From IMG/VR virus record IMGVR_UViG_3300045988_060257: DNA of 40,786 bases, one strand, 5' to 3'. Below the pieces are notes generated by a model. That model was not told the DNA's origin, made no database searches, and saw only the letters and a list, made by a program, of their open reading frames with translations. Position numbers and translations under genes: made by a program. Of this stretch, positions 1 through 40,786 are shown piece by piece (within the stretch, counting starts at the first letter, position 1; each line of letters begins with the position of its first letter). Source of the stretch: a virus.

Positions 1-56
1 CACTCAGGGCGCGGCATCTGCTACAGGCACTCAGGGCGCGGCATCTGCTACAGGCA
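1..56 (+). repeat. continuation of the 27-bp coding tandem repeat (GGCGCGGCATCTGCTACAGGCNNNNNN) that also ends the window
   Basis: nt 1-34 are identical to nt 40753-40786. Units encode GAASATGTQ. Confidence 0.9.
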
Positions 57-262
57 CGGAAAGCGTTGCTGCTGCGCTCGGCATTAATAGTAAAGCTAAA
101 GGCGCTTTAGGATGCTGGATTGTGATTGCAGAATGGGAAAGCGACGAGAAATTTAACTGGCATCGTAAAGATGTGCAGTGCTTTAAAGTTGACGGTGAAA
201 ACATCAAGTCCGATACCTGGTACAAGCTGAAAAACGGCGAGCTTGTGGAGGTGTCCGAATGA
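2..262 (+). CDS. 3' part of a wrap-around CDS: DUF7666-like repeat protein (5' part at 40358..40786)
   Basis: The frame is open from nt 2 with no start. It encodes ...GAASATGTESVAAALGINSKAKGALGCWIVIAEWESDEKFNWHRKDVQCFKVDGENIKSDTWYKLKNGELVEVSE. TGA 260-262 overlaps the next ATG. Confidence 0.8.
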   Translation, partial: TQGAASATGTQGAASATGTESVAAALGINSKAKGALGCWIVIAEWESDEKFNWHRKDVQCFKVDGENIKSDTWYKLKNGELVEVSE

Positions 263-2963: not shown

Positions 2964-3399
2964 TGTTGTTGCTATTATCGGAAGACTCGCTGCATCGCCG
3001 GAACTCAAAACCACGAACAGCGGTAAATCCGTCTGTTCTTTCCGCATCGCCAACGATTCCGGCTATAAGGATGCCAGCGGCCAGAGCCAGACAAACTGGC
3101 TGGACGTTACTGCCTGGGGCAAAACCGCAGAGTTTGTCTGCAAATACTTCCCCAAAGGTGCGCTGATCGCCATTGATGGCCGCTTACAGACCCGCCAGTA
3201 TCAGGACAAGAACGGCCAGAACCGCACAGCGACCGAAATCGTGGCCCAGAACGCGAATTTCTGCGGCAGTAAGGAAAGTACTAGCCCCACCCCGCAGAAC
3301 GCTGCACAGCGCCCCGCAGCCCACTCACAGCGCACGCAGGGCGAACCCGCTGCAGACTACGCCCCGATTGACGATGACGAGGGCGACCTCCCCTTTTAA
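2956..3399 (+). CDS. ssb: single-stranded DNA-binding protein
   Basis: OB-fold N-terminus NVVAIIGRLAASPELKTT...WLDVTAWGKTAEF and the acidic tail DDDEGDLPF. Confidence 0.9.
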   Translation: MLNVVAIIGRLAASPELKTTNSGKSVCSFRIANDSGYKDASGQSQTNWLDVTAWGKTAEFVCKYFPKGALIAIDGRLQTRQYQDKNGQNRTATEIVAQNANFCGSKESTSPTPQNAAQRPAAHSQRTQGEPAADYAPIDDDEGDLPF

Positions 3400-3640: not shown

Positions 3641-4426
3641 ATGGCAAATGAGGGCTTCATCAAGCTGTACAGAAAAATGCTCGAATGGGGCTGGTATGAT
3701 GACGGCCCCACAAAGGACGTGTTTATTCACCTGCTGCTGATTGCCAGCTATGAGGATAAATTTTATCGTGGTATCCCGCTGGAACGCGGCCAAGTTGTTA
3801 CAACAGTCAAGGAAATGAGCGTAAAGCTTGGCCTGACAACGCAACAAATTCGTACTGCTTTAGGCAAGCTAATTTCAACAAACGAAGTAACAAAGAACGC
3901 AACGTCAAAATTCACCGTTTACACGATAAATAATTATGCCGATTATCAGGCAATCAACAAAGACTCTAACAATCCAGCAACAAACGAGCAACAAACGAGC
4001 AACAAACCCTCTAATACTAAGAAGGTAAGAAATAAAGAAATACCCCCTATACCCCCCACGGGGGTTGACGCGGATTCCCCTTCCTTTGACCGTTTCTGGG
4101 CAGCTTACCCAAAGAAGGTCGGCAAGGCAGATGCCCGTAAAAAATTTGAAAAGCTTGTGCCGGATGAATCCACCCTGTCCGCAATCTTGTCCAGCCTTGA
4201 GTACCTCAAGACCACTGACCAGTGGCAGCGTGAGAATGGCAAGTACATCCCAAACCCGTCTACATGGTTGAATCAAAAGCGCTGGCAGGATGAAGCATCC
4301 CAGCCGCCTACTACTGTCCGCTCTACTGATAACCTGCGGCCTGTGTTTGACCGTGAGTACACGTTTGAAGAACGGATGAATGGAGTTGTCCCGAAAATCG
4401 TGGGATGGGAGGAGGCAAAAGCATGA
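3641..4426 (+). CDS. replisome organizer / DnaD-like replication initiator
   Basis: The N-terminus GFIKLYRKMLEWGWY...HLLLIASY and the FDRFWAAYPKKVGK motif are typical of phage replication proteins. It sits directly upstream of the helicase. Confidence 0.65.
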   Translation: MANEGFIKLYRKMLEWGWYDDGPTKDVFIHLLLIASYEDKFYRGIPLERGQVVTTVKEMSVKLGLTTQQIRTALGKLISTNEVTKNATSKFTVYTINNYADYQAINKDSNNPATNEQQTSNKPSNTKKVRNKEIPPIPPTGVDADSPSFDRFWAAYPKKVGKADARKKFEKLVPDESTLSAILSSLEYLKTTDQWQRENGKYIPNPSTWLNQKRWQDEASQPPTTVRSTDNLRPVFDREYTFEERMNGVVPKIVGWEEAKA

Positions 4427-9555: not shown

Positions 9556-10391
9556 CCTGCTATTATAGATATGCTGGATGATGTAGGAACGGGACAGCCT
9601 ACTGCATAGCTAAAACCTCCTTTCTTTACCATTTTCATTTCTCCTGTTTTCATAGCTGGCAGCCGGGAAAGACCGGCATTTTATATGCTGCATAGCCGGT
9701 TCTATCTGCAAAGAATAAGGGCGCTGCGTTTCGAAGCAACGGCGCGGCAAAGGTGCAAGACCTATGTGCAGTACCAAGGCCGATGATACGGGTAAAGGTA
9801 GCAGGGCCGGACGCGGCAATTGTGTTCCCCGTTAGGCAACCGCCACGAGCCTACTGACAGTGCGTAACATGTGGCGGATTCTGCAATACAGGGTGGCTCT
9901 CTGCCGTGGAAGTCGGCCAACTTTAGCTGAAACATTGCTATGGATTGCCAAGCCAAACAGGTTCATGCCGATATGCCCCGCTAAAGAAACTTGCAGGGCA
10001 GAGCGCATGAGCCTTATATGCCAACATAGCTTAACTGGTAAAGCCGGGCCTCATGACAGCATAGCTGCGGGTTTAGTTGCGGGTTCAAATCCTGCTGTTG
10101 GCGAAAGCTGGGTCGCTCCCACCGGTGAAAGCCCGGCGCAGGCAAAACGCGATAGATAACCTGAACGCCATATCTGCTTGCGCGGACGCCGTTACTGACG
10201 CCGTTGCGCGTTGTGGCCCTTTTTTAATCAAAGCAGAAACCGCGACCAGCGGACGGGATATAAATAACGCTGGATTACGTTGCAGGTGTGCAGCTGCAAC
10301 GGGTGAGACCGGCACAGCATAAACCGGTAGGGCGGGAACGCGCTTTCCTCCGGCGCAAAGGGGTTTTGGGGGATATAAGCTTACACAAATT
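9556..10391 (+). ncRNA. candidate large structured RNA or long structured late-operon leader
   Basis: 836 nt with no credible ORF in an otherwise gap-free genome. GC-rich with many hairpins (e.g. 9662-9677, nested 9964-10009, 10279-10300). An extended -10 TGCTATTAT lies at 9558-9566. Confidence 0.35.
10020..10103 (+). tRNA. tRNA-like element (possible pseudo- or atypical tRNA; CAT triplet in an aberrant anticodon region)
   Basis: Perfect 7-bp acceptor stem GCCAACA/TGTTGGC. D arm GCTT-AACTGGTA-AAGC. T arm GCGGG-TTCAAAT-CCTGC. The 33 nt between them form no canonical anticodon stem. No encoded CCA. Confidence 0.4.
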
Positions 10392-10404
10392 GTGTGGGCT
10401 TTTT
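10380..10404 (+). terminator. weak terminator-like hairpin plus T-run just upstream of terS
   Basis: CTTACAC-AAATT-GTGTGGG (two G-U pairs) followed by CTTTTTG. Confidence 0.25.
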
Positions 10405-10427
10405 GTGTTGTAAAGCGAGGTGATAAA

Positions 10428-10853
10428 GTGGCATCAAGAAAAAATCCGGTGGGCGCACCACCTAAATACAGAAGCGTAAAGGCAATGCAAGAAAAGATTG
10501 ATGCCTACTTTGAAGCCTGTAAAGGAAAGCCGTTTTTAGACGATAACGGCGAACCGATGCGAAATAAAAACGGCTATATCATCTATGACGATAAAAAGCC
10601 GCCTACTGTGACAGGATTGGCGCTTGCACTTGGTTTTGCATCAAGGCAGGCGCTTTTGAATTATCAAAACAAACCAGAGTTCAATGACACGATTACGCGT
10701 GCAAAGGCTCAGTGCGAACAGTACGCCGAAGAAAGATTATACGACAAAGACGGCTCCGGCGGCGCACAGTTCAGTTTGCGGGCAAATTTTGGATGGCAGG
10801 ATAAGCCGGAACAACAGCAGGATAGCGAGGTGCTAATCATAGATGACTTGTAA
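10428..10853 (+). CDS. terS: terminase small subunit
   Basis: GTG 10428 follows GAGGTGA. KNPVGAPPKY...KPPTVTGLALALGFASRQALLNY is typical of gp3-like small terminases. Confidence 0.75.
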   Translation: MASRKNPVGAPPKYRSVKAMQEKIDAYFEACKGKPFLDDNGEPMRNKNGYIIYDDKKPPTVTGLALALGFASRQALLNYQNKPEFNDTITRAKAQCEQYAEERLYDKDGSGGAQFSLRANFGWQDKPEQQQDSEVLIIDDL

Positions 10854-12114
10854 GTTATCTGGCGTTGTTTCCCCTTGCTTCGCCAAAGTCCACCGTGAAA
10901 TCAAGGCGGGCAATGTGAAAGAACTGCTTGCAAAGGGCGGGCGCGGCAGTACCAAATCCAGCTATATCAGCATAGAGCTGATTTTGCAGCTTATCAAGCA
11001 TCCGCAATGCCACGCGGCAGTTTTCCGCAAGGTCGGCAACACACTGCGCACAAGCGTTTATGCGCAAATCGTCTGGGCAATAAATGAGTTGGGCTTGCAC
11101 GACCATTTCCGATGCACGGTCAGCCCGATGGAATGCACCTATTTGCCGACCGGGCAAAAGGTGCTTTTTTTCGGCGTAGATGACCCCGGCAAGGTAAAGT
11201 CAATCAAAGTGCCGTTTGGCTATATCGGCATCTGCTGGTTTGAAGAACTTGACCAGTTTGACGGTGAAGAGCAAATCCGAAACGTTGAGCAGTCCTGCCT
11301 ACGCGGTGGCGACTGGTTTTTAACGTTTAAGAGTTTCAACCCTCCTGCGATGGCGCGGAACTGGGCAAATGGCTACGCGCTGAAAGCCCGCGAAGGCAAG
11401 CTGGTACATCATTCCACCTACAAAACAACGCCCGCAGAATGGCTCGGAGAGCGGTTCCTGGCCGATGCTGAATACTTGGAGCGCACAAACGAAACAGCAT
11501 ACCGGCATGAGTATCTTGGCGAGGTTGTCGGCAGTGGCACGGCAGTGTTCGAGAATCTGCGCATTGAGAAAATAACCGATGAACAGATTGCCAGCTTTGA
11601 CCGCATCAAGCGCGGCGTGGACTGGGGCTGGTACCCTGACCCTTGGGCATACAATGCTATGCACTATGACGCGGCACGGCGAACACTGTACATCTTTGAT
11701 GAAATGACACGGCGCAGAACCAGCAACAGGGATACTGCACAGCTGCTTTTGGATAGAGGGCTGACGCGCGAGGACAAAGTCTGCGCGGATAGTGCTGAGC
11801 CGAAATCCATTGCGGACTACAACAAGTACGGCGTGAAAACATTCCCTGCCCGTAAAGGACCGAAATCGGTTCGCTATGGAACAAAGTGGTTGCAAATGCT
11901 GGAAGCGATTGTCATTGATCCAGAACGATGCCCGGACACAGCAAAGGAATTCAGCGAGTACGAGTACGAGCGAGACAGCAAGACGGGGGAAGTGCTGGAA
12001 GGCTACCCGGATTTGAACAACCATCACATTGACGCAGTGCGTTATGGGATGGAAAGCACAGCGAACAAAGCCGGAGACAATACGGCAATGAAGTATCAAA
12101 GCATTTACAGATAG
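10843..12114 (+). CDS. terL: terminase large subunit (PBSX-type)
   Basis: Walker A-like KGGRGSTKSS. Size and position fit terL. Confidence 0.85.
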   Translation: MTCKLSGVVSPCFAKVHREIKAGNVKELLAKGGRGSTKSSYISIELILQLIKHPQCHAAVFRKVGNTLRTSVYAQIVWAINELGLHDHFRCTVSPMECTYLPTGQKVLFFGVDDPGKVKSIKVPFGYIGICWFEELDQFDGEEQIRNVEQSCLRGGDWFLTFKSFNPPAMARNWANGYALKAREGKLVHHSTYKTTPAEWLGERFLADAEYLERTNETAYRHEYLGEVVGSGTAVFENLRIEKITDEQIASFDRIKRGVDWGWYPDPWAYNAMHYDAARRTLYIFDEMTRRRTSNRDTAQLLLDRGLTREDKVCADSAEPKSIADYNKYGVKTFPARKGPKSVRYGTKWLQMLEAIVIDPERCPDTAKEFSEYEYERDSKTGEVLEGYPDLNNHHIDAVRYGMESTANKAGDNTAMKYQSIYR

Positions 12115-35415: not shown

Positions 35416-35418
35416 GCA

Positions 35419-35440
35419 AGTGTGTACTAAAGTGTGTACT
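35419..35440 (+). repeat. tandem decamers AGTGTGTACT-AA-AGTGTGTACT (candidate integrase arm-type site)
   Basis: The same decamer pair recurs at 35615-35637, on the other side of the attP core. Confidence 0.6.
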
Positions 35441-35513: not shown

Positions 35514-35614
35514 TGACGGATTAAAACCCGCCCGTTCCAAATCATCGTATTGCCGCTATTTATTCAACGCGCCGTTTTGCATTTCCGCCCCTAAAAAACG
35601 TCCCCACAGAAAAA

Positions 35615-35637
35615 AGTGTGTACTAAAAGTGTGTACT
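35615..35637 (+). repeat. tandem decamers AGTGTGTACT-AAA-AGTGTGTACT (candidate integrase arm-type site)
   Basis: Direct-repeat partner of 35419-35440. It overlaps the int stop codon region. Confidence 0.6.
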
Positions 35638-36702
35638 TTTTACAATCTCATCAAAGACGTTTTCAAGGTTGTTTGCAATCGCTCTGTCCTGTCCATTGAT
35701 CGCATGAGAATATACCCCGTAGGTGTCCATGTTTCGGCTGTGTCCTACAGTCTGTTTCAGCTGCCCCATCGGCAGGTTTGCCGCAATGCTGACGAATGTG
35801 TGCCGCAGCTCGTACAAGGTGCATTTTGTAATGCCGTTTGCCTCGCAGTATCGCTCCCACCCCCGCCGGACGTTCCGTTCTTCCTCTTGGATGAACACCC
35901 GTTGCTGCATTCCGGTCAACTCTTTCTGTGCTTCCAGCTCGGCCATCGACCGCGCCGACAGCACGACAGCGCGCGGTGCATTTTCGTTTTTCCCTCTTGT
36001 TTCCCTTTTATATATAGTAACTGATCTGTGTATCAATGCTTTCCCGTCCTGGATGTCGCCCCATTCAAGGCCCAGCAGCTCGCCGGGCCTCATCCCGGTA
36101 AACACTGCCAGCCGGTAATAATGGATGCGTTCATCCGGCACCCTGCGCCCTCTGTATAAGGTAGTATCCACGTTTAAAAGCGTCACAATGTCAGACGGTT
36201 GCAGGATGGTCCGATCTTTATAGCGCGCCCCATCTGGTACATGCAGGTCTTCCGGCTCAAATGTGGACCATCCAGACCGACGGCAGAACTTGAAGAAAGC
36301 CCGGAGATCACCTGCTATATTCTTGATTGTTTTCTTGCTCCGGCCAGCAGCAAAAGCGTCATCAAGGATGTTCTGCACTGTCTGCTCTGTGATTGCAGTC
36401 AATCGCTTGGTTCCGATTCTCGGCCCTATCCAGGCATTATACCGGCCCTGCATGGGCTTCCAGTTTCCCTCAGATGATACTTTCATCTGCCGTGTCATAA
36501 ACTCAGCGTAAGCCGCCTCTACGGTATAGGTTCGCGTCTGCAATCCCTTTTCCAGCCAGTCATCCGCCTTCTTGTTTGCTTCCCTCTGGCCGGTTCTTCC
36601 AGGCTTGGCGCTGGTAAAGGTTTTGCGCACGCCGTCTTTCTGCACGTTTATCTGCCAGCGCTGGGCAGATTCAATCCATCTCGCTGTATTTGTTCTTTTC
36701 AT
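35623..36702 (-). CDS. int: tyrosine recombinase (phage integrase)
   Basis: The C-terminal catalytic region contains LRHTFVS...GHSRNMDTYGVYSH, and the N-terminus has a SAM-like domain. It is adjacent to attP. Confidence 0.85.
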   Translation of the reverse strand: MKRTNTARWIESAQRWQINVQKDGVRKTFTSAKPGRTGQREANKKADDWLEKGLQTRTYTVEAAYAEFMTRQMKVSSEGNWKPMQGRYNAWIGPRIGTKRLTAITEQTVQNILDDAFAAGRSKKTIKNIAGDLRAFFKFCRRSGWSTFEPEDLHVPDGARYKDRTILQPSDIVTLLNVDTTLYRGRRVPDERIHYYRLAVFTGMRPGELLGLEWGDIQDGKALIHRSVTIYKRETRGKNENAPRAVVLSARSMAELEAQKELTGMQQRVFIQEEERNVRRGWERYCEANGITKCTLYELRHTFVSIAANLPMGQLKQTVGHSRNMDTYGVYSHAINGQDRAIANNLENVFDEIVKSTHF

Positions 36703-37101: not shown

Positions 37102-38007
37102 TTATTTGGAAAACAATCTATTGCAATCTATTTTGTAAGATTTTAGAACCCTCTGCGCAATCCCATCTTTTCCAAAAATGTAGGATGTTACAATACCTGC
37201 GGCATCTATCGCAGTAACAGTTGGGGTTTCAACAAGCATCCTACCGTATCTTTCTTTTGCCATATCAAAAATTTGTTCTTCAGTAAAGCCAGCGTTTTTT
37301 TGGGCTTTCTTTAGTTCCTGCATAATTCCAGGAGCTATAAAAGGATATTGGCAATTCATATCATAAAAAGGTATTTCAAGTAGCATAGAAAAAGCCGTTT
37401 CAAACTTTTTTTCGTCTACCAAAAACTCATACATAGAATATCGTAAATCACGACATTTTTTGGGAGACGAAATTGCTCCCATGTATAGTTTATTGTATTT
37501 CTCCCATATTAAATCCCGATACGGGATGTCTCTTCGAGCGTTTACGGCGCGGCAAAACTCTGACAAGGAAAAAGTAGCACGAGCGTAAGTTTTTCTGTGC
37601 CAAAAATAAACATATTCGTTATTTTTTATTTCTTCTTTTCCTTTTTCGGTCAATTTCCCGTTTTTGGCAAAACCCATTGATTCCAATTTTTTGATTATAG
37701 GCCAAACGTCATCAACACCATAATCATAATGCCAGAACTTTGCAACAGGCTTTCCACTGGAATATTTCTCTAAATAAGAAAGCATTAAAATTTCTGTTGG
37801 CTTCAGGCCGTTTTTGTCTGCAAGATCATCAGCGGAAAGCGCCAAGAAATACTCATTTGCACGCTCTTCCTGCTCTGCGTGCCGCTTTTCTGCTTGCGCT
37901 TTGCAGTAATTAGTGTATTGCTTTGCAATTTCATCTTTAGTCGGCTCATGTGTAGTTATGGAAACATTTACTTTTGGTTTCGGCTTCAAAAAGTCAAAAA
38001 AGCCCAT
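37102..38007 (-). CDS. AT-rich orphan protein (301 aa) in the lysogeny module
   Basis: Long ORF, co-oriented with the repressor and 75 nt downstream of it. Markedly AT-rich. I recognise no family. Confidence 0.6.
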   Translation of the reverse strand: MGFFDFLKPKPKVNVSITTHEPTKDEIAKQYTNYCKAQAEKRHAEQEERANEYFLALSADDLADKNGLKPTEILMLSYLEKYSSGKPVAKFWHYDYGVDDVWPIIKKLESMGFAKNGKLTEKGKEEIKNNEYVYFWHRKTYARATFSLSEFCRAVNARRDIPYRDLIWEKYNKLYMGAISSPKKCRDLRYSMYEFLVDEKKFETAFSMLLEIPFYDMNCQYPFIAPGIMQELKKAQKNAGFTEEQIFDMAKERYGRMLVETPTVTAIDAAGIVTSYIFGKDGIAQRVLKSYKIDCNRLFSK

Positions 38008-38082: not shown

Positions 38083-38448
38083 TTACGCCTGATCAGATGA
38101 CCGATTTTGTAACTGCTGCGCAAGATTTAATAGAGCGCTTGCAAGCTGAGGGTTCTCTTGGCAAAGAGAAATAATTTTTTGTACATCTTGCGGCAAACCA
38201 GATACTAGCCCATCGCCTTGTGCGGTGGGCTTTTTTTCGTTTTTGAAATCCCCGGTCAGGTCGGCAACGGTGACTCCTAGCAAACTGGCAACATCGGCTA
38301 GCATGTGTTCTGGCAAATCGCGCCCGTTTGCTAGCATTTCAGACAAATAGCCCCGACTTTTTCCGAGCTCTGTACTAATATGCGTGAAGGCAATTCCTTT
38401 TTTCTTTGCTATTTTCTTGGCTTTTTCCACGTATCGCACACAAATCAC
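38083..38448 (-). CDS. CI-like XRE-family repressor
   Basis: GTG start. The HTH is IAFTHISTELGKSRGYLSEMLANGRDLPEHMLADVASLLGVTV. It is divergent from cro. Confidence 0.75.
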   Translation of the reverse strand: MICVRYVEKAKKIAKKKGIAFTHISTELGKSRGYLSEMLANGRDLPEHMLADVASLLGVTVADLTGDFKNEKKPTAQGDGLVSGLPQDVQKIISLCQENPQLASALLNLAQQLQNRSSDQA

Positions 38449-38498: not shown

Positions 38499-38527
38499 TT
38501 TACATCTAGCATAAATGCTAGTATAAT
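38499..38527 (+). promoter_or_regulatory. early rightward promoter TTTACA-17-TATAAT with the operator palindrome CTAGCAT-AA-ATGCTAG (38506-38521) in the spacer
   Basis: Read directly from the sequence. Related GCTAGAAA half-sites lie at 38477-38484, 38487-38494, 38642-38649 (ACTAGAAA) and, inverted, at 38626-38633. Confidence 0.65.
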
Positions 38528-38663: not shown

Positions 38664-38858
38664 GTGAATATTTCGAAAATTGATGCACTGTGCCGAAAAA
38701 ACAATATTTCCCGCACAATCCTTGAGGAACGCGCCGGAATCTCAAACGGCGCACTTGGCAAGTGGGAGAAATCGCCTTACGGCCCCAGCATCACGACGCT
38801 AAAGAAAGTGGCTGATTATTTCGGCGTGCCGGTTGATTATTTGCTAGCCGATAACTAG
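38664..38858 (+). CDS. Cro-like XRE-family HTH protein
   Basis: GTG after AAAGGAG. ISRTILEERAGISNGALGKWEKS...LKKVADYFGVPVDYLL. Confidence 0.75.
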   Translation: MNISKIDALCRKNNISRTILEERAGISNGALGKWEKSPYGPSITTLKKVADYFGVPVDYLLADN

Positions 38859-38876
38859 AAAGGAGGAGTAACCACC

Positions 38877-39176
38877 ATGACAAGCCTCGCCTTTACCGCC
38901 TTTATCAAAACCAAAGGCTATACCACCAAAGGTGCGCTGGCTGATGCCTGCGGCATGGACCGCACCGTCTTTTGTGACCGATGCCGGGGCCGCTCTCCCT
39001 GGCTCTGGAAAGAAGCCTGCAAGGTTTGTTCCGTGCTGGACATCTCCCTGGACGACTTTGCCGCCTACTTCCCCGCCGCCGCCGTCCGCCGGTCAACCCC
39101 CGTCAAGCCCAAATCCGACCGCGAACAGCTGGCCGACGCGCTGCAGCTTGCCGCTGACCTCCTCAAAAAAGCGTAG
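38877..39176 (+). CDS. hypothetical early protein (possible HTH)
   Basis: RBS AAAGGAGG. 99-aa ORF. Confidence 0.5.
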   Translation: MTSLAFTAFIKTKGYTTKGALADACGMDRTVFCDRCRGRSPWLWKEACKVCSVLDISLDDFAAYFPAAAVRRSTPVKPKSDREQLADALQLAADLLKKA

Positions 39177-39513
39177 GAATTGCTTGGAAAGGCGGAGCAA
39201 AGGAAAAGCCATGCTTGCCCATGCAATGGCAAGGCTATGCGATGCTATGAAAGGCAATGGCGATGCTCTGAAAGGCAATGGCGATGCGCAGCTTGGAAAG
39301 GAATGGAGTTGCATTGGAAAAGCACCGTTTAGCATTGTTTTGCAATAGCAAAGAGATGTATGGAGCAGCAAAGGCACAGCTACGCAGAGCACAGCAGTGG
39401 CAAAGCAGGGCGTAGAAGGGCACCGCAAAGGCGTAGCATTTCATTGCGACGCGACGGCAAAGCAAAGACTTGAAGAGCAACCGTAATTTATCAATTAGAA
39501 AGGACGACCACAA
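39177..39513 (+). repeat. purine-rich degenerate repeat tract with GC dinucleotides phased every 5-6 nt
   Basis: GC starts at 39365, 368, 374, 379, 384, 389, 394, 400, 405, 410, 420, 425, 431 and 436. GCAAAG occurs 7 times. C occurs almost only after G. Confidence 0.8.
39246..39287 (+). repeat. 2 x 21-bp tandem repeat T(A/C)TGAAAGGCAATGGCGATGC
   Basis: 39246-39266 and 39267-39287 differ at one position. Degenerate copies flank them. Confidence 0.9.
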
Positions 39514-40119
39514 ATGAAAATCCGTATCACTTTAACCGAAGAGGTTTTAGGTTCCAGCCCCAGCAATGAGGAGCTGCTGGCCGCTTACATCGCCAGCAAG
39601 GCCCCCACCGATGACCTGACCGCGCAGGAAGTCGACAACATCAAAGCGCAGGCGGCAGAGGAAAGAACGACCATTTTTCCCAAGACTGCCGACGGAACGC
39701 CGTTCATCTACGATTATCAGATCAAGGGCATGTTTAAGGACAGCTGCAAGGCCCTTGCCACTGCCGGTAAGGCAGGCTATCCGGGCGGCAAGCACTGTGC
39801 CGCGTTGAAAGCCTACAAGAAAGCCATTGACGGCCTGATTTTCGTTTCCCCGCGTGAGATTCCATACAACCTTCACGGCCTAAAGATGGGCTTCTGTGAG
39901 CGCCCCCTGCGCGCACAGACCCCGATGGGTGAGCGCGTCAGCATCGCCAAGAGCGAGAGCGTGCCCGCCGGAGCAACCGCAGAATTTGAAATCGAATGCC
40001 TGGATGAAAAGCTGGAAGATATGGTACGCGAATGTTTGGACTACGGCGCAAAGCGCGGCTTGGGCCAGTGGCGCAACTCCGGCAAGGGCCGCTTTGAATG
40101 GGAGGAAGTAAAAGAATGA
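39514..40119 (+). CDS. hypothetical protein with RAMP/Cas7-like motif order (tentative)
   Basis: RBS GAAAGGA. KIRITLTEEVLGSSPSN ... PFIYDYQIKGMFKDS ... RPLRAQTPMGERVSIAKSESVPAGATAEFEIEC ... GLGQWRNSGKGRFEW (glycine-rich loop). Confidence 0.35.
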   Translation: MKIRITLTEEVLGSSPSNEELLAAYIASKAPTDDLTAQEVDNIKAQAAEERTTIFPKTADGTPFIYDYQIKGMFKDSCKALATAGKAGYPGGKHCAALKAYKKAIDGLIFVSPREIPYNLHGLKMGFCERPLRAQTPMGERVSIAKSESVPAGATAEFEIECLDEKLEDMVRECLDYGAKRGLGQWRNSGKGRFEWEEVKE

Positions 40120-40361
40120 TGGCGACAGCAACAAAAAAACGCCGCCCCTGTGCTGGCACACAGAGACGGCAGAACGAACAGAGCATCGCAAAAAGCTCTA
40201 ACTATATTCTATCACTTACCAGTGCTGCCGTCAAGCTGGCAATCACCGCAGATTTGGTGCTGCTTCTGGCAGCGCTCGGCAGCCTGAACATTCCCGTAAC
40301 CATCCTCGCACTGCTGGCCCTGAATCCGCTGTGCGGCAATCTTTTGGAGGCAACCAGATGA
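40116..40361 (+). CDS. small membrane protein
   Basis: ATGA overlap with the upstream stop. Basic N-terminus, then hydrophobic LAITADLVLLLAALGSLNIPVTILALLAL. Confidence 0.5.
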   Translation: MMATATKKRRPCAGTQRRQNEQSIAKSSNYILSLTSAAVKLAITADLVLLLAALGSLNIPVTILALLALNPLCGNLLEATR

Positions 40362-40786
40362 AAGCATATAAAGGATTTGATAAAGACCTGAAATGCAAAG
40401 ATTTCCAGTATGAAATCGGCAAGACCTACGAGGAACCCACCGCCGAACTGTGCGAGAAAGGCTTTCACGCCTGCGAGTACCCGTTGGATGTATTTGAATA
40501 CTACGCCCCCGGCAACATGAGCCGCTACTGTGAGGTGGATTTGGACGATGTGAGCGATAAAAAAAGCAACAAAGATAGCAAGCGCTGCGGCAAAAAGATT
40601 GCTGTGAAAGCAGAAATCGGCATTGCTGGGCTTGTAAAAGCTGCCGTTAAGTACACGATGGAGAAAGCCATCCCGGAAAACTCCAAACATGCTACAGGCT
40701 GGCGGGGCGCGGCATCTGCTACAGGCTGGCAGGGCGCGGCATCTGCTACAGGCACTCAGGGCGCGGCATCTGCTACAGGCACTCAG
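40358..40786 (+). CDS. 5' part of the wrap-around DUF7666-like repeat protein (continues at 2..262)
   Basis: ATGA overlap with the upstream stop. KAYKGFDKDLKCKDFQYEIGKTYEE...GFHACEYPLDVFEYY. There is no stop before the window end. Confidence 0.8.
   Translation, partial: MKAYKGFDKDLKCKDFQYEIGKTYEEPTAELCEKGFHACEYPLDVFEYYAPGNMSRYCEVDLDDVSDKKSNKDSKRCGKKIAVKAEIGIAGLVKAAVKYTMEKAIPENSKHATGWRGAASATGWQGAASATGTQGAASATGTQ
40691..40786 (+). repeat. 27-bp in-frame tandem repeats (3.5 units here, continuing at nt 1)
   Basis: GCTACAGGC-NNNNNN-GGCGCGGCATCT units encode ATG(WR/WQ/TQ)GAAS. Confidence 0.9.

What the first reader, a model, noticed from the sequence alone, without database searches (positions are those of the whole stretch)
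39177..39513. 337-bp purine-rich tract with GC dinucleotides phased every 5-6 nt, including a 2 x 21-bp tandem repeat
On the + strand, C occurs almost only as GC, and GC recurs with spacings of 3, 6, 5, 5, 5, 5, 6, 5, 5, 10, 5, 6, 5, 10, 5, 6 and 5 nt (39365-39463). The same rhythm holds in the left half (39208-39292). That is roughly half a helical turn and is not a codon periodicity. Superimposed on it are T(A/C)TGAAAGGCAATGGCGATGC x2, seven GCAAAG motifs and many GGA/AAGG motifs. Arrays of triplets separated by 2-3 nt are how multimeric RNA-binding proteins (TRAP-like rings, filament-forming RAMPs with 6-nt steps) read RNA. Phased repeats are also typical of iteron origins and bent DNA. A 45-aa ORF (39211..39348, with a KGNGDAL/KGNGDAQ repeat) is possible but would cover only part of the tract. 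The tract lies directly upstream of the RAMP-like ORF.
Basis: seen in the sequence. Interest (0 to 1): 0.65.

Follow-up and report, generated by a model that had tools for sequence, protein, structure and literature searches.

The report
Phage Cas7-like gene with G-lattice tract
The purine-rich tract is real: it is a non-coding run of 59 five-or-six-base units that nearly all start with G, and it travels as one cassette with the neighbouring phage gene for a Cas7-type (CRISPR-backbone-like) protein in about 150 related gut prophages, so the two are probably an undescribed protein-nucleic-acid filament system.

Summary
Window 39177-39478 parses into 59 consecutive 5- or 6-nt units, and 58 of them start with G (consensus W-N-G-C-A). 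The mean step is 5.17 nt. The spectral peak is 30, against at most 10.7 in 1000 dinucleotide shuffles. No other place in the window shows this signal.

The adjacent 201-aa ORF (39514-40119) is a Cas7-family RAMP. The AlphaFold2 model has pLDDT 92, and the best Foldseek matches are type VII Cas7 and type III Csm3/Cmr4.

In 153 of 160 loci that encode a homologue (44-100% identity; Oscillospiraceae, Lachnospiraceae, Eggerthellaceae and others), a same-strand G-lattice tract of 150-770 nt directly flanks the gene. It lies upstream in 94, downstream in 53, and on both sides in 6. The background rate is 0.1% of windows.

The tract sequences are hypervariable, but the period is fixed at 5.16 ± 0.03 nt and stays in register for more than 200 nt. 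Lattice G's change about six times less often than the positions between them. Two close relatives lack both the tract and the gene.

The tract is not coding, is not a folded RNA, matches no Rfam family, and is probably not the replication origin.

Best reading (confidence 0.55): the transcribed tract is the assembly track on which the Cas7-like protein polymerises. The non-integer register, and whether the bound form is RNA or DNA, remain open. The biological role is unknown.

The parts
39177..39478 (+). G-lattice tract: 59 consecutive units of 5 nt (mostly) or 6 nt, 58 of which start with G. Consensus W-N-G-C-A. Mean step 5.17 nt. Non-coding.
   Evidence: parse and statistics; lattice composition and purifying selection in relatives.
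39231..39287 (+). 21-nt tandem repeat, 2.8 copies, each copy equal to four lattice units (5+5+5+6). A recent in-register duplication. Close relatives L002 and L004 carry a net 31-nt length difference here.
   Evidence: Tandem Repeats Finder; relatives.
39479..39513 (+). A/T-rich spacer and Shine-Dalgarno sequence (GAAAGGA, 39498-39504) of the Cas7-like gene. This 3' end is conserved among relatives, whereas the lattice body is not.
39514..40119 (+). 201-aa Cas7-family RAMP protein with no CRISPR array and no other cas genes nearby.
   Evidence: Profile against PDB: type VII Cas7 E=2e-6 and Csm4 E=1.6e-3. AlphaFold2 pLDDT 92.4. Foldseek: type VII Cas7 E=7e-8, probability 1.0, TM 0.53-0.56, followed by Csm3/Cmr4. 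PADLOC Cas7_IIId E=8e-5. BFVD 'Cas system-associated RAMP superfamily protein'.
38499..38527 (+). Promoter-like site (TTTACA-17-TATAAT, 11 of 12) upstream of the cro-like gene. It is the likely source of the transcript that runs through the tract. No + strand terminator-like site lies between the last upstream gene and the tract; the only + strand match, 38949-38964, is a weak 5-bp stem inside the HTH-like ORF.
   Evidence: consensus scan only; transcription is inferred.
39144..40229 (.). Cassette (tract plus Cas7-like gene plus a short 3' hairpin region) that is present in the window and replaced by 137 bp in relatives L162 and L163. Their flanks are 94.6% and 93.5% identical to the window.

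Best explanation
The tract and the Cas7-like gene form one module. The tract is transcribed as part of the early lytic operon, from the promoter-like site upstream of the cro-like gene. It is the dedicated assembly track for the Cas7-like protein.

As Cas7 proteins do on crRNA, the protein would polymerise head-to-tail along the single-stranded transcript. Here, however, the register would be set by sequence: one G (usually G-C-A) per protomer, with an average spacing of 5.16 nt. In this phage that gives a ribonucleoprotein filament of about 59 protomers, and 25-150 in relatives. The bases between the G's are free to vary, which would explain why the tract is hypervariable.

In the window's clade the filament would end at the gene's own ribosome-binding site. 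In most distant relatives it would end at the ribosome-binding site of the next gene. A dose-dependent control of translation or mRNA stability is therefore the simplest consequence. A decoy or anti-defence role is an alternative.

**Shown:** the lattice; its conservation and the selection on it; the linkage to the gene; and the Cas7 fold.

**Inferred:** transcription of the tract, binding, polymerisation, that RNA is the bound form, and the biological role.
For: 1. **Linkage.** 153 of 160 loci that encode a homologue (44-100% identity) have a same-strand G-lattice tract within 450 nt of the gene. The background is 50 of 52,470 windows more than 1.3 kb away. Two further metagenomic phages at 44% and 51% identity also have one.
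2. **The tract follows the gene, not its neighbours.** The genes upstream of the tract differ between loci. The tract sits 5' of the gene in 94 loci, 3' in 53 and on both sides in 6, always on the gene's strand.
3. **Co-loss.** L162 and L163 keep both flanks at about 94% identity but lack both the tract and the gene.
4. **Selection on the lattice.** Among related tracts, lattice G differs in 2.3% of comparisons. Intervening positions differ in 12-15%, and off-lattice G in 21%.
5. **Indels keep the phase.** Net indel sizes cluster at lattice multiples (5, 10, 21, 26, 31, 36/37, 52, 57 nt) rather than at multiples of 3, with some off-lattice sizes.
6. **The protein.** It is a confident Cas7-family fold with a long beta-hairpin at residues 126-150. 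In type VII Cas7 the beta-thumb (residues 114-138) sets the RNA register (PMC13069675).
7. **Fusions.** Natural tandem fusions of two such domains exist (P0155, P0246), as expected for subunits that sit side by side.
8. **No folded structure.** The window tract has z = -1.19, and 75 tracts have a mean z of 0.02. This fits a linear protein-binding track.
9. **Transcription context.** No terminator-like site lies between gene and tract in 51 downstream-type loci. One locus (L088) has an intrinsic terminator right after the tract.
Against: - No binding or expression data exist; everything here is comparative.
- Known Cas7 filaments use a strict 6-nt (5+1) register and bind the RNA backbone without base specificity (PMC13069675). 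Here the period is 5.16 nt and is not an integer.
- The lattice keeps long-range order within ±1 nt over 40 units. This is easy to explain on a rigid lattice such as double-stranded DNA (2 x 5.16 = 10.3 bp). It is harder to explain on flexible single-stranded RNA with one anchor per protomer.
- Most genes in these regions share one orientation, so same-strand orientation is weaker evidence for an RNA form than it first looks.
- No phenotype or role can be derived from the sequence.
Confidence: 0.55

Rival explanations
1. The lattice acts on double-stranded DNA. A protein (the Cas7-like protein or another) coats the duplex with two protomers per helical turn on alternating faces. The resulting nucleoprotein structure could act in recombination, replication, transcription blocking or genome organisation.
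For: The period is non-integer and tightly fixed (5.159 ± 0.029 in 97 tracts), whatever the GC content. Register holds within ±1 nt to lag 207. When a lattice point falls between two bases, both tend to be G: the extra base of a 6-nt unit is G in 94% of cases. This is the behaviour of a rigid, incommensurate lattice. 2 x 5.16 = 10.3 bp is close to the B-DNA helical repeat (established knowledge). The module often lies next to recombination genes such as Erf, RecT and SSB.
Against: There is no 10.3-nt sub-harmonic, so every half-turn would have to be equivalent even though the motif is directional. 10.3 is somewhat below the 10.4-10.5 of free B-DNA. Only the G strand is conserved, and +1 is C in only 36-51% of units. 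Cas7-family proteins are known as single-stranded RNA binders. A site every 5 bp is very dense for a 22-kDa protein.
Confidence: 0.2
2. The tract is an RNA sponge or track for a host multimeric RNA-binding protein (TRAP-like, CsrA-like or other). It would be linked to the Cas7-like gene only by shared regulation.
For: Triplet-like motifs with 2-3-nt spacers resemble the TRAP site architecture (established knowledge). The tract is unstructured and purine-rich.
Against: The tight physical and evolutionary linkage is to the Cas7-like gene specifically, across hosts from different phyla. The tract and gene are lost together. No other conserved partner gene was found. Tracts of 25-150 units are far longer than known sponge RNAs, and their long-range register would not be needed.
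Confidence: 0.08
3. The tract is an iteron-type replication origin or intrinsically bent DNA.
For: There is a 21-nt tandem repeat of 2.8 copies, equal to about two helical turns. The phasing is near half a helical turn. GC and AT skew are positive.
Against: The net 31-nt length difference in close relatives L002 and L004 falls in the 21-nt repeat region. No 10.3-nt component exists, and half-turn phasing cancels curvature. The DnaD-like initiator (3641-4426) carries its own 11-bp x3.6 repeats, and DnaB follows it. The tract follows the Cas7-like gene across phages whose neighbouring early genes differ.
Confidence: 0.04
4. The tract is a functionless, slippage-prone pentanucleotide satellite that hitch-hikes next to the gene.
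For: Length and sequence vary greatly between close relatives, and segments are exchanged in a mosaic pattern. In-register duplications occur.
Against: Lattice G's change six-fold less often than the positions between them. The same period is kept across phyla and across GC 0.42-0.64. The tract is present in 153 of 160 loci, both 5' and 3' of the gene. It is lost together with the gene.
Confidence: 0.04
5. The tract is translated (the 45-aa ORF at 39211-39348, or the antisense ORFs).
For: ORFs of 45 aa (+), and 92 and 111 aa (-), overlap the tract.
Against: The period is 5.16 nt, not 3. Net indels between relatives are 5, 10, 26, 31, 52 nt and so on. The ORF is truncated in L002 and L004. There are no Pfam or PHROG hits.
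Confidence: 0.01

Closest known systems
Cas7 backbone filaments on crRNA in class 1 CRISPR effectors (type VII Cas7; type III Csm3/Cmr4)
   Same: The protein fold matches (Foldseek probability 1.0): RRM core, glycine-rich loop and a long beta-hairpin. By analogy, it is expected to polymerise along a single RNA. Tandem-fused double domains exist, as in Cas7 fusion effectors.
   Different: There is no CRISPR array and no Cas5, Cas6, Cas10, Cas8 or Cas14. The gene is phage-encoded, in the early lytic operon. The partner tract is 150-770 nt, hypervariable, and defined by G every 5.16 nt. Known Cas7 filaments instead use a sequence-independent 6-nt '5+1' register (PMC13069675).
TRAP and the trp leader in Bacillus: 11 (G/U)AG triplets separated by 2-3 nt and read by an 11-mer ring (established knowledge)
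   Same: A short motif repeats every 5-6 nt on unstructured RNA and is read by a multimer.
   Different: The motif (G-C-A), the copy number (25-150 rather than 11) and the protein family all differ. TRAP sites do not need long-range quasi-periodic register.
Periodic assembly signals of helical viral nucleocapsids: the TMV origin of assembly with G every third base, and the paramyxovirus 'rule of six' (established knowledge)
   Same: The base periodicity equals the number of nucleotides bound per protein subunit, and the intervening sequence is free.
   Different: Those periods are integers and belong to virion nucleocapsids of RNA viruses. Here the period is non-integer and the element lies inside a dsDNA phage operon.
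Helically phased DNA repeat arrays: plasmid and phage iterons, ParR-parC centromeres (established knowledge)
   Same: Direct repeats keep register with the DNA helix. The window contains a 21-nt duplication.
   Different: The period here is half a turn with no full-turn component. There is no conserved iteron sequence. No initiator or partition gene is linked to the tract, and the initiator gene is elsewhere in the genome.
RNA anti-CRISPRs (Racrs; PMC10651486)
   Same: They are phage-encoded non-coding RNAs that engage Cas-family proteins.
   Different: Racrs mimic CRISPR repeats and use host Cas proteins. This tract has no repeat-like hairpin and comes with its own Cas7-like gene.

Membership tests
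Cas7 / RAMP protein family (for ORF 39514-40119) | RRM (ferredoxin-like) core with a C-terminal glycine-rich loop | tested here: met
   The 71-sequence profile hits type VII Cas7 (E=2e-6) and Csm4 (E=1.6e-3) over the G-rich loop GLGQWRNSGKGRF. Foldseek gives probability 1.0 to Cas7, Csm3 and Cmr4. PADLOC Cas7_IIId E=8e-5.
Cas7 / RAMP protein family (for ORF 39514-40119) | Beta-hairpin 'thumb' that sets the RNA register | tested here: inconclusive
   The AlphaFold2 model has a long beta-hairpin at 126-136/139-150. This is a similar position to the type VII Cas7 beta-thumb at 114-138 (PMC13069675). No residue-level superposition was inspected.
Cas7 / RAMP protein family (for ORF 39514-40119) | Polymerises on RNA with a 6-nt (5+1) periodicity | tested here: not met
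   Binding itself cannot be tested here. The linked tract has its only periodicity at 5.16 nt (with a harmonic at 2.58) and none at 6.0.
CRISPR-Cas system | CRISPR array (20-40-nt direct repeats with unique spacers) and other cas genes (Cas5, Cas6, Cas8, Cas10 and so on) in the locus | tested here: not met
   No such repeats were found. The Cas7-like gene is the only conserved gene across 87 diverse loci. The window neighbours are cro-like and HTH-like genes upstream, then unassigned ORFs followed by the Erf, NinB, SSB and DnaD-like genes across the circular junction.
Iteron-type replication origin | Several conserved 17-22-bp iterons next to or inside the initiator gene, plus an AT-rich unwinding region | tested here: not met
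   The only long repeat is 21 nt x 2.8, and the length difference in L002 and L004 falls in that region. The initiator gene is at 3641-4426 with its own 11-bp repeats. The tract GC is about 0.50, matching the window average of 0.50.
Structured non-coding RNA families (Rfam) | Match to a covariance model, or a conserved secondary structure | tested here: not met
   No Rfam match reaches gathering score, and only chance-level hits appear (E above 1). Folding z-scores are -1.19 for the window and 0.02 on average for 75 tracts.
TRAP-type or CsrB-type protein-binding repeat RNA | The cognate motif ((G/U)AG for TRAP, or GGA in hairpin loops for CsrA) repeated at short spacing, with the cognate protein present | tested here: not met
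   The lattice consensus is W-N-G-C-A. GGA occurs only 9 times and off the lattice. The host proteins were not examined.
Protein-coding sequence | Conserved reading frame, 3-nt periodicity, indels in multiples of 3 | tested here: not met

The most novel reading that the evidence does not exclude
This is a previously undescribed, CRISPR-independent ribonucleoprotein system of temperate phages of gut anaerobes. A solo Cas7-family protein polymerises on its own dedicated, hypervariable 'G-lattice' RNA with a register of about 5.16 nt per protomer. That would be a Cas7 filament whose assembly is programmed by sequence periodicity rather than by a CRISPR repeat handle. The phage could use it to control early gene expression or to counter host RNA-guided or RNA-sensing immunity. 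It could be either an exapted Cas7 or a relic of the pre-CRISPR RAMP lineage.
Probability: 0.5. Interest if true: 0.9.

Novelty: new variant of a known kind. Interest (0 to 1): 0.82.

Why it matters
Cas7 proteins are known only as backbones of CRISPR effector complexes. There they are loaded onto crRNA through a repeat-derived handle and measure RNA in 6-nt steps.

Here a large family (6830 detected homologues, 1577 clusters at 50% identity) is carried by prophages of common human-gut bacteria without any CRISPR component. It is tied to a new type of conserved non-coding element defined only by phase.

If the protein does assemble on this tract, three things follow:
- Sequence periodicity alone can program a Cas7 filament.
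- A second, non-6-nt register exists for this fold.
- A directly testable case of Cas7 exaptation, or ancestry, outside adaptive immunity becomes available.

The strict non-integer lattice, which stays in register for more than 200 nt, is an unexplained physical constraint in its own right. A single cryo-EM or binding experiment could address it.

In practice, the lattice is also a simple and specific signature for annotating this module in viromes.

Tried and rejected
- **Protein coding.** Rejected on the 5.16-nt period, net indels that are not multiples of 3, the truncated ORF in L002 and L004, and the lack of family hits.
- **Known RNA family.** Rfam at gathering score and at E up to 10 found nothing meaningful.
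- **Folded RNA.** Folding z-scores are indistinguishable from shuffles, both in the window and in 75 tracts.
- **Higher-order unit.** The pooled spectrum of 125 tracts has no component at 10.3, 21, 26 or 31 nt, so the 21-nt repeat is a local duplication.
- **Guide-like complementarity.** The best match of any 24-nt tract segment to the rest of the phage genome, on either strand, is 19 of 24, the same as for shuffled tracts.
- **A conserved second protein partner** (Cas5-, Cas6- or Cas11-like). None was found among 87 diverse loci; the recurrent minus-strand 'families' are shadow ORFs.
- **Terminators bracketing downstream tracts.** Only 1 of 51 loci has one, so the tract is usually a spacer inside an operon.
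- **6.0-nt G periodicity in L146.** It first looked like a 6-nt variant, but it is a coding Gly-X dipeptide repeat and is unrelated.
- **Cultured phage carrying the gene.** The phage collection holds only four unannotated metagenomic records.
- **Literature.** Six full-text searches found no description of the module.

Full report
**Setting.** The window is a circularly permuted temperate phage genome of about 40.8 kb. The 27-nt coding repeats at 40690-40780 continue at 1-57. Near the finding lie:
- an integrase (35623-36702, minus strand);
- a cI-like HTH gene (38083-38448, minus strand);
- a divergent cro-like HTH gene (38664-38858, plus strand);
- a second HTH-like gene (38877-39176, plus strand);
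- the tract (39177-39513);
- a 201-aa ORF (39514-40119, plus strand).

Across the circular junction the early operon continues with Erf, a NinB/Orf-like gene, an HNH endonuclease, SSB, a DnaD-like initiator, DnaB and RusA. The closest genome-resident relative is a prophage in a Gemmiger MAG (85% protein identity), followed by Subdoligranulum.

**Checking the observation.** Every factual element is reproduced:
- purine content is 63.5%;
- there are 43 GC dinucleotides;
- the GC spacings from 39365 to 39462 are exactly as listed;
- there are seven GCAAAG motifs;
- a 45-aa ORF lies at 39211-39348.

Two details need correction. The tandem repeat has 2.8 copies of 21 nt at 39231-39287. Only 66% of the C's follow G.

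The periodicity is far beyond chance. The GC indicator peaks at 5.2 nt with power 30.1. Across 1000 dinucleotide-preserving shuffles the mean was 4.5 and the maximum 10.7. Permuting the order of the observed spacings lowers the peak from 33.5 to 13.0 ± 3.9 (0 of 300 reached it). No other part of the window shows the signal.

The underlying regularity lies in G rather than GC. A dynamic-programming parse with 5/6-nt steps covers 39177-39478 with 59 consecutive units. 58 of them begin with G, the mean step is 5.17 nt, and 6-nt steps recur every 20-36 nt apart from one adjacent pair.

**The neighbouring gene is a Cas7-family RAMP.**
- Pfam and PHROGs give nothing.
- A profile of 71 diverse homologues hits the Cas7 of type VII CRISPR complexes (E=2e-6) and Csm4 (E=1.6e-3) in the PDB.
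- The AlphaFold2 model is confident (pLDDT 92.4, pTM 0.85).
- Foldseek ranks type VII Cas7 first (E=7e-8, probability 1.0, TM about 0.55), followed by Csm3/Cmr4 of type III.
- PADLOC's Cas7_IIId model and BFVD's 'Cas system-associated RAMP superfamily protein' agree.
- The family is large: 6830 proteins at E ≤ 1e-3 and 1577 clusters at 50% identity.
- It includes tandem two-domain fusions (P0155, P0246).
- There is no CRISPR array and no other cas gene.

**The tract belongs to the gene.** I collected 80 viral contigs (79-100% protein identity) and 80 loci from bacterial genomes (about 46-85%).

- **Linkage.** In 153 of 160 loci a G-periodic tract of 150-770 nt lies within 450 nt of the gene, on the gene's strand. 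It is upstream in 94, downstream in 53 and on both sides in 6. More than 1.3 kb away, only 50 of 52,470 windows (0.1%) reach the same threshold.
- **Further loci.** Two more metagenomic phages at 44% and 51% identity show the same arrangement.
- **Real genomes.** The tracts also occur in isolate genomes, Eggerthella sp. AM16-19 and Lachnospiraceae bacterium ZAX-1, so they are not assembly artefacts.
- **Neighbours vary.** The gene on the other side of the tract differs between loci, and no other protein family is conserved with the module.
- **Co-loss.** Two close relatives of this phage, L162 and L163, keep the flanks 38864-39143 (94.6%) and 40230-40780 (93.5%). They lack both the tract and the gene: 1086 bp are replaced by 137 bp.

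**What is conserved is the phase, not the sequence.** Tracts next to nearly identical proteins can share only a short 3' part.
- In 97 tracts of at least 300 nt, the period is 5.159 ± 0.029 nt. It is independent of GC content (0.42-0.64).
- The pooled spectrum of 125 distinct tracts (51 kb) has only this fundamental and its 2.58 harmonic. Nothing appears at 6, 10.3, 21, 26 or 31 nt.
- The G-G autocorrelation remains sharp, within ±1 nt, out to lag 207, which is 40 units (identity autocorrelation).
- 5- and 6-nt steps placed at random would lose register within about 10 units (my estimate), so the 6-nt steps are regularly interspersed.
- In 6-nt units the extra base is G in 94% of cases. When a lattice point falls between two bases, both tend to be G.
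- The lattice composition is the same in all clades. Position 0 is G (79-83%). Position +1 is C (36-51%) and rarely T. Position +2 is A (43-50%). Position -2 is A or T. Position -1 is any base.
- Among related tracts, lattice G differs in 2.3% of comparisons and +1 C in 4.8%. The other positions differ in 12-15% and off-lattice G in 21%.
- Net indels cluster at lattice multiples (5, 10, 21, 26, 31, 36/37, 52, 57 nt), with some off-lattice sizes, and they are not multiples of 3.

This is purifying selection on a non-coding phase signal.

**What it is not.**
- It is not translated (see above). The 45-aa ORF is truncated in L002 and L004, whose tracts are about 88% identical to the window's.
- It matches no Rfam family.
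- It is not a folded RNA (z = -1.19 in the window; mean 0.02 over 75 tracts).
- It shows no guide-like complementarity to the rest of the phage genome.
- It is probably not the origin. The DnaD-like initiator gene carries its own 11-bp x3.6 repeats at 3968-4007 and is followed by DnaB. The length difference in close relatives falls in the 21-nt repeat region. Half-turn phasing without a full-turn component would not bend DNA.

**Most likely mechanism.** A promoter-like site at 38499-38527 (TTTACA-17-TATAAT) precedes the cro-like gene. No + strand terminator-like site lies between the last upstream gene and the tract; the only + strand match (38949-38964) is a weak 5-bp stem inside the HTH-like ORF. 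In 51 downstream-type loci none lies between the gene and the tract, and one locus (L088) has a clear intrinsic terminator just after the tract.

I therefore infer that the tract is transcribed together with the gene. I propose that the Cas7-like protein polymerises along this transcript, with one G(C,A) per protomer setting the register.

The analogies are the Cas7 backbone on crRNA, where the beta-thumb sets a '5+1' pattern (PMC13069675), and periodic assembly signals such as the TMV origin of assembly (established knowledge). The model's long beta-hairpin (126-150) and the natural double-domain fusions fit side-by-side assembly.

In this phage the filament would have about 59 protomers and would end at the gene's own Shine-Dalgarno sequence (GAAAGGA, 39498-39504). 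This suggests dose-dependent control of translation or mRNA stability. In downstream-type loci the tract abuts the next gene's ribosome-binding site. A decoy or anti-defence function is equally open.

None of the binding steps has been shown.

**The main unexplained feature.** The register is non-integer (5.16 nt) yet keeps long-range order. Known Cas7 filaments use exactly 6 nt. A flexible RNA anchored once per protomer should not keep cumulative register.

Two readings remain:
- The nucleic acid is held as a uniform stack along a protein helix whose rise is incommensurate with the nucleotide spacing.
- The lattice is read on double-stranded DNA, where 2 x 5.16 = 10.3 bp is near one helical turn, with protomers on alternating faces.

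The DNA reading is the chief rival (0.2). Against it: there is no 10.3-nt component, conservation is strand-specific to G, the sites would be very dense, and the protein family is known to bind RNA.

**Novelty.** Six full-text searches found no description of a phage Cas7-like gene with a periodic partner tract. Public records carry only automatic RAMP- or Csm-type labels.

I file the protein as a Cas7-family member. I do not file the module as a CRISPR-Cas system. It is a new variant of the Cas7-RNA kind. There is about an even chance that it is a distinct, CRISPR-independent ribonucleoprotein system.

Noticed in passing
window 10278-10340 (+) and 10020-10103 (+): A D12-methyl RNA motif (RF02950, 81.8 bits against a gathering score of 57) and a tRNA gene lie just upstream of a 153-aa and a 423-aa ORF (10392-12114; not scanned against any family library).
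   Followed up: no
window 1-57 and 40690-40780; ORF starting near 40359 and running off the end: The window is circularly permuted. A gene starting MKAYKGFDKDLKCKDFQYEIGK... carries 27-nt (9-aa, ATGxQGAAS-like) tandem repeats that continue from the window end into its start. Homologues in L162, L163 and L171 have different repeat units and copy numbers.
   Followed up: partly
window 3968-4007 (inside the DnaD-like initiator gene 3641-4426); also 3290-3333: An 11-bp repeat (AACAAACGAGC x3.6) lies inside the replication-initiator gene, and a 22-bp x2 repeat lies upstream. These are candidate origin iterons.
   Followed up: no
window 40234-40206 (-) and 40171-40140 (-): Just downstream of the Cas7-like gene, on the minus strand, there is a promoter-like site (TTGACG-17-TAGAAT with TG) followed by a strong terminator-like hairpin (14 pairs plus a T-run). 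It could be a roughly 60-nt antisense small RNA or a bidirectional terminator. This hairpin region lies inside the cassette that is missing in L162 and L163; the 137-bp replacement there appears by eye to contain a similar hairpin.
   Followed up: no
window 35418-35440 and 35612-35637: Exact short tandem repeats of AAGTGTGTACTA / AAAAGTGTGTACT flank the 3' end of the integrase gene. They may be attP arm-type sites.
   Followed up: no
proteins P0155 (458 aa) and P0246 (432 aa): These are natural tandem fusions of two Cas7-like domains in one polypeptide. P0154 carries a long Lys/Arg-rich C-terminal tail. P0162 has an N-terminal PLD-nuclease-like region, which could be a gene-calling fusion.
   Followed up: partly
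L146 1270-1460: A strong 6.0-nt G periodicity (power 41.7) turned out to be a coding Gly-X dipeptide repeat (GDGNGYGY...) in an unrelated 258-aa ORF. L146 is one of the few loci with only a short (150-nt) spacer after the Cas7-like gene.
   Followed up: yes
L112 1521-2950; L099 3581-4490; L067 3221-3990: Some loci carry very long lattice tracts, or several consecutive ones (about 0.8-1.4 kb in total). L110, L123, L124, L152 and L156 have tracts on both sides of the gene.
   Followed up: no
window 37102-38007 (-): A 301-aa ORF between the integrase and the cI-like repressor has no Pfam or PHROG hit and lower GC (about 0.35). It may be a lysogeny-expressed moron or defence gene. The only hit is a faint PADLOC match to a DRT-associated model (E=0.015).
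   Followed up: no
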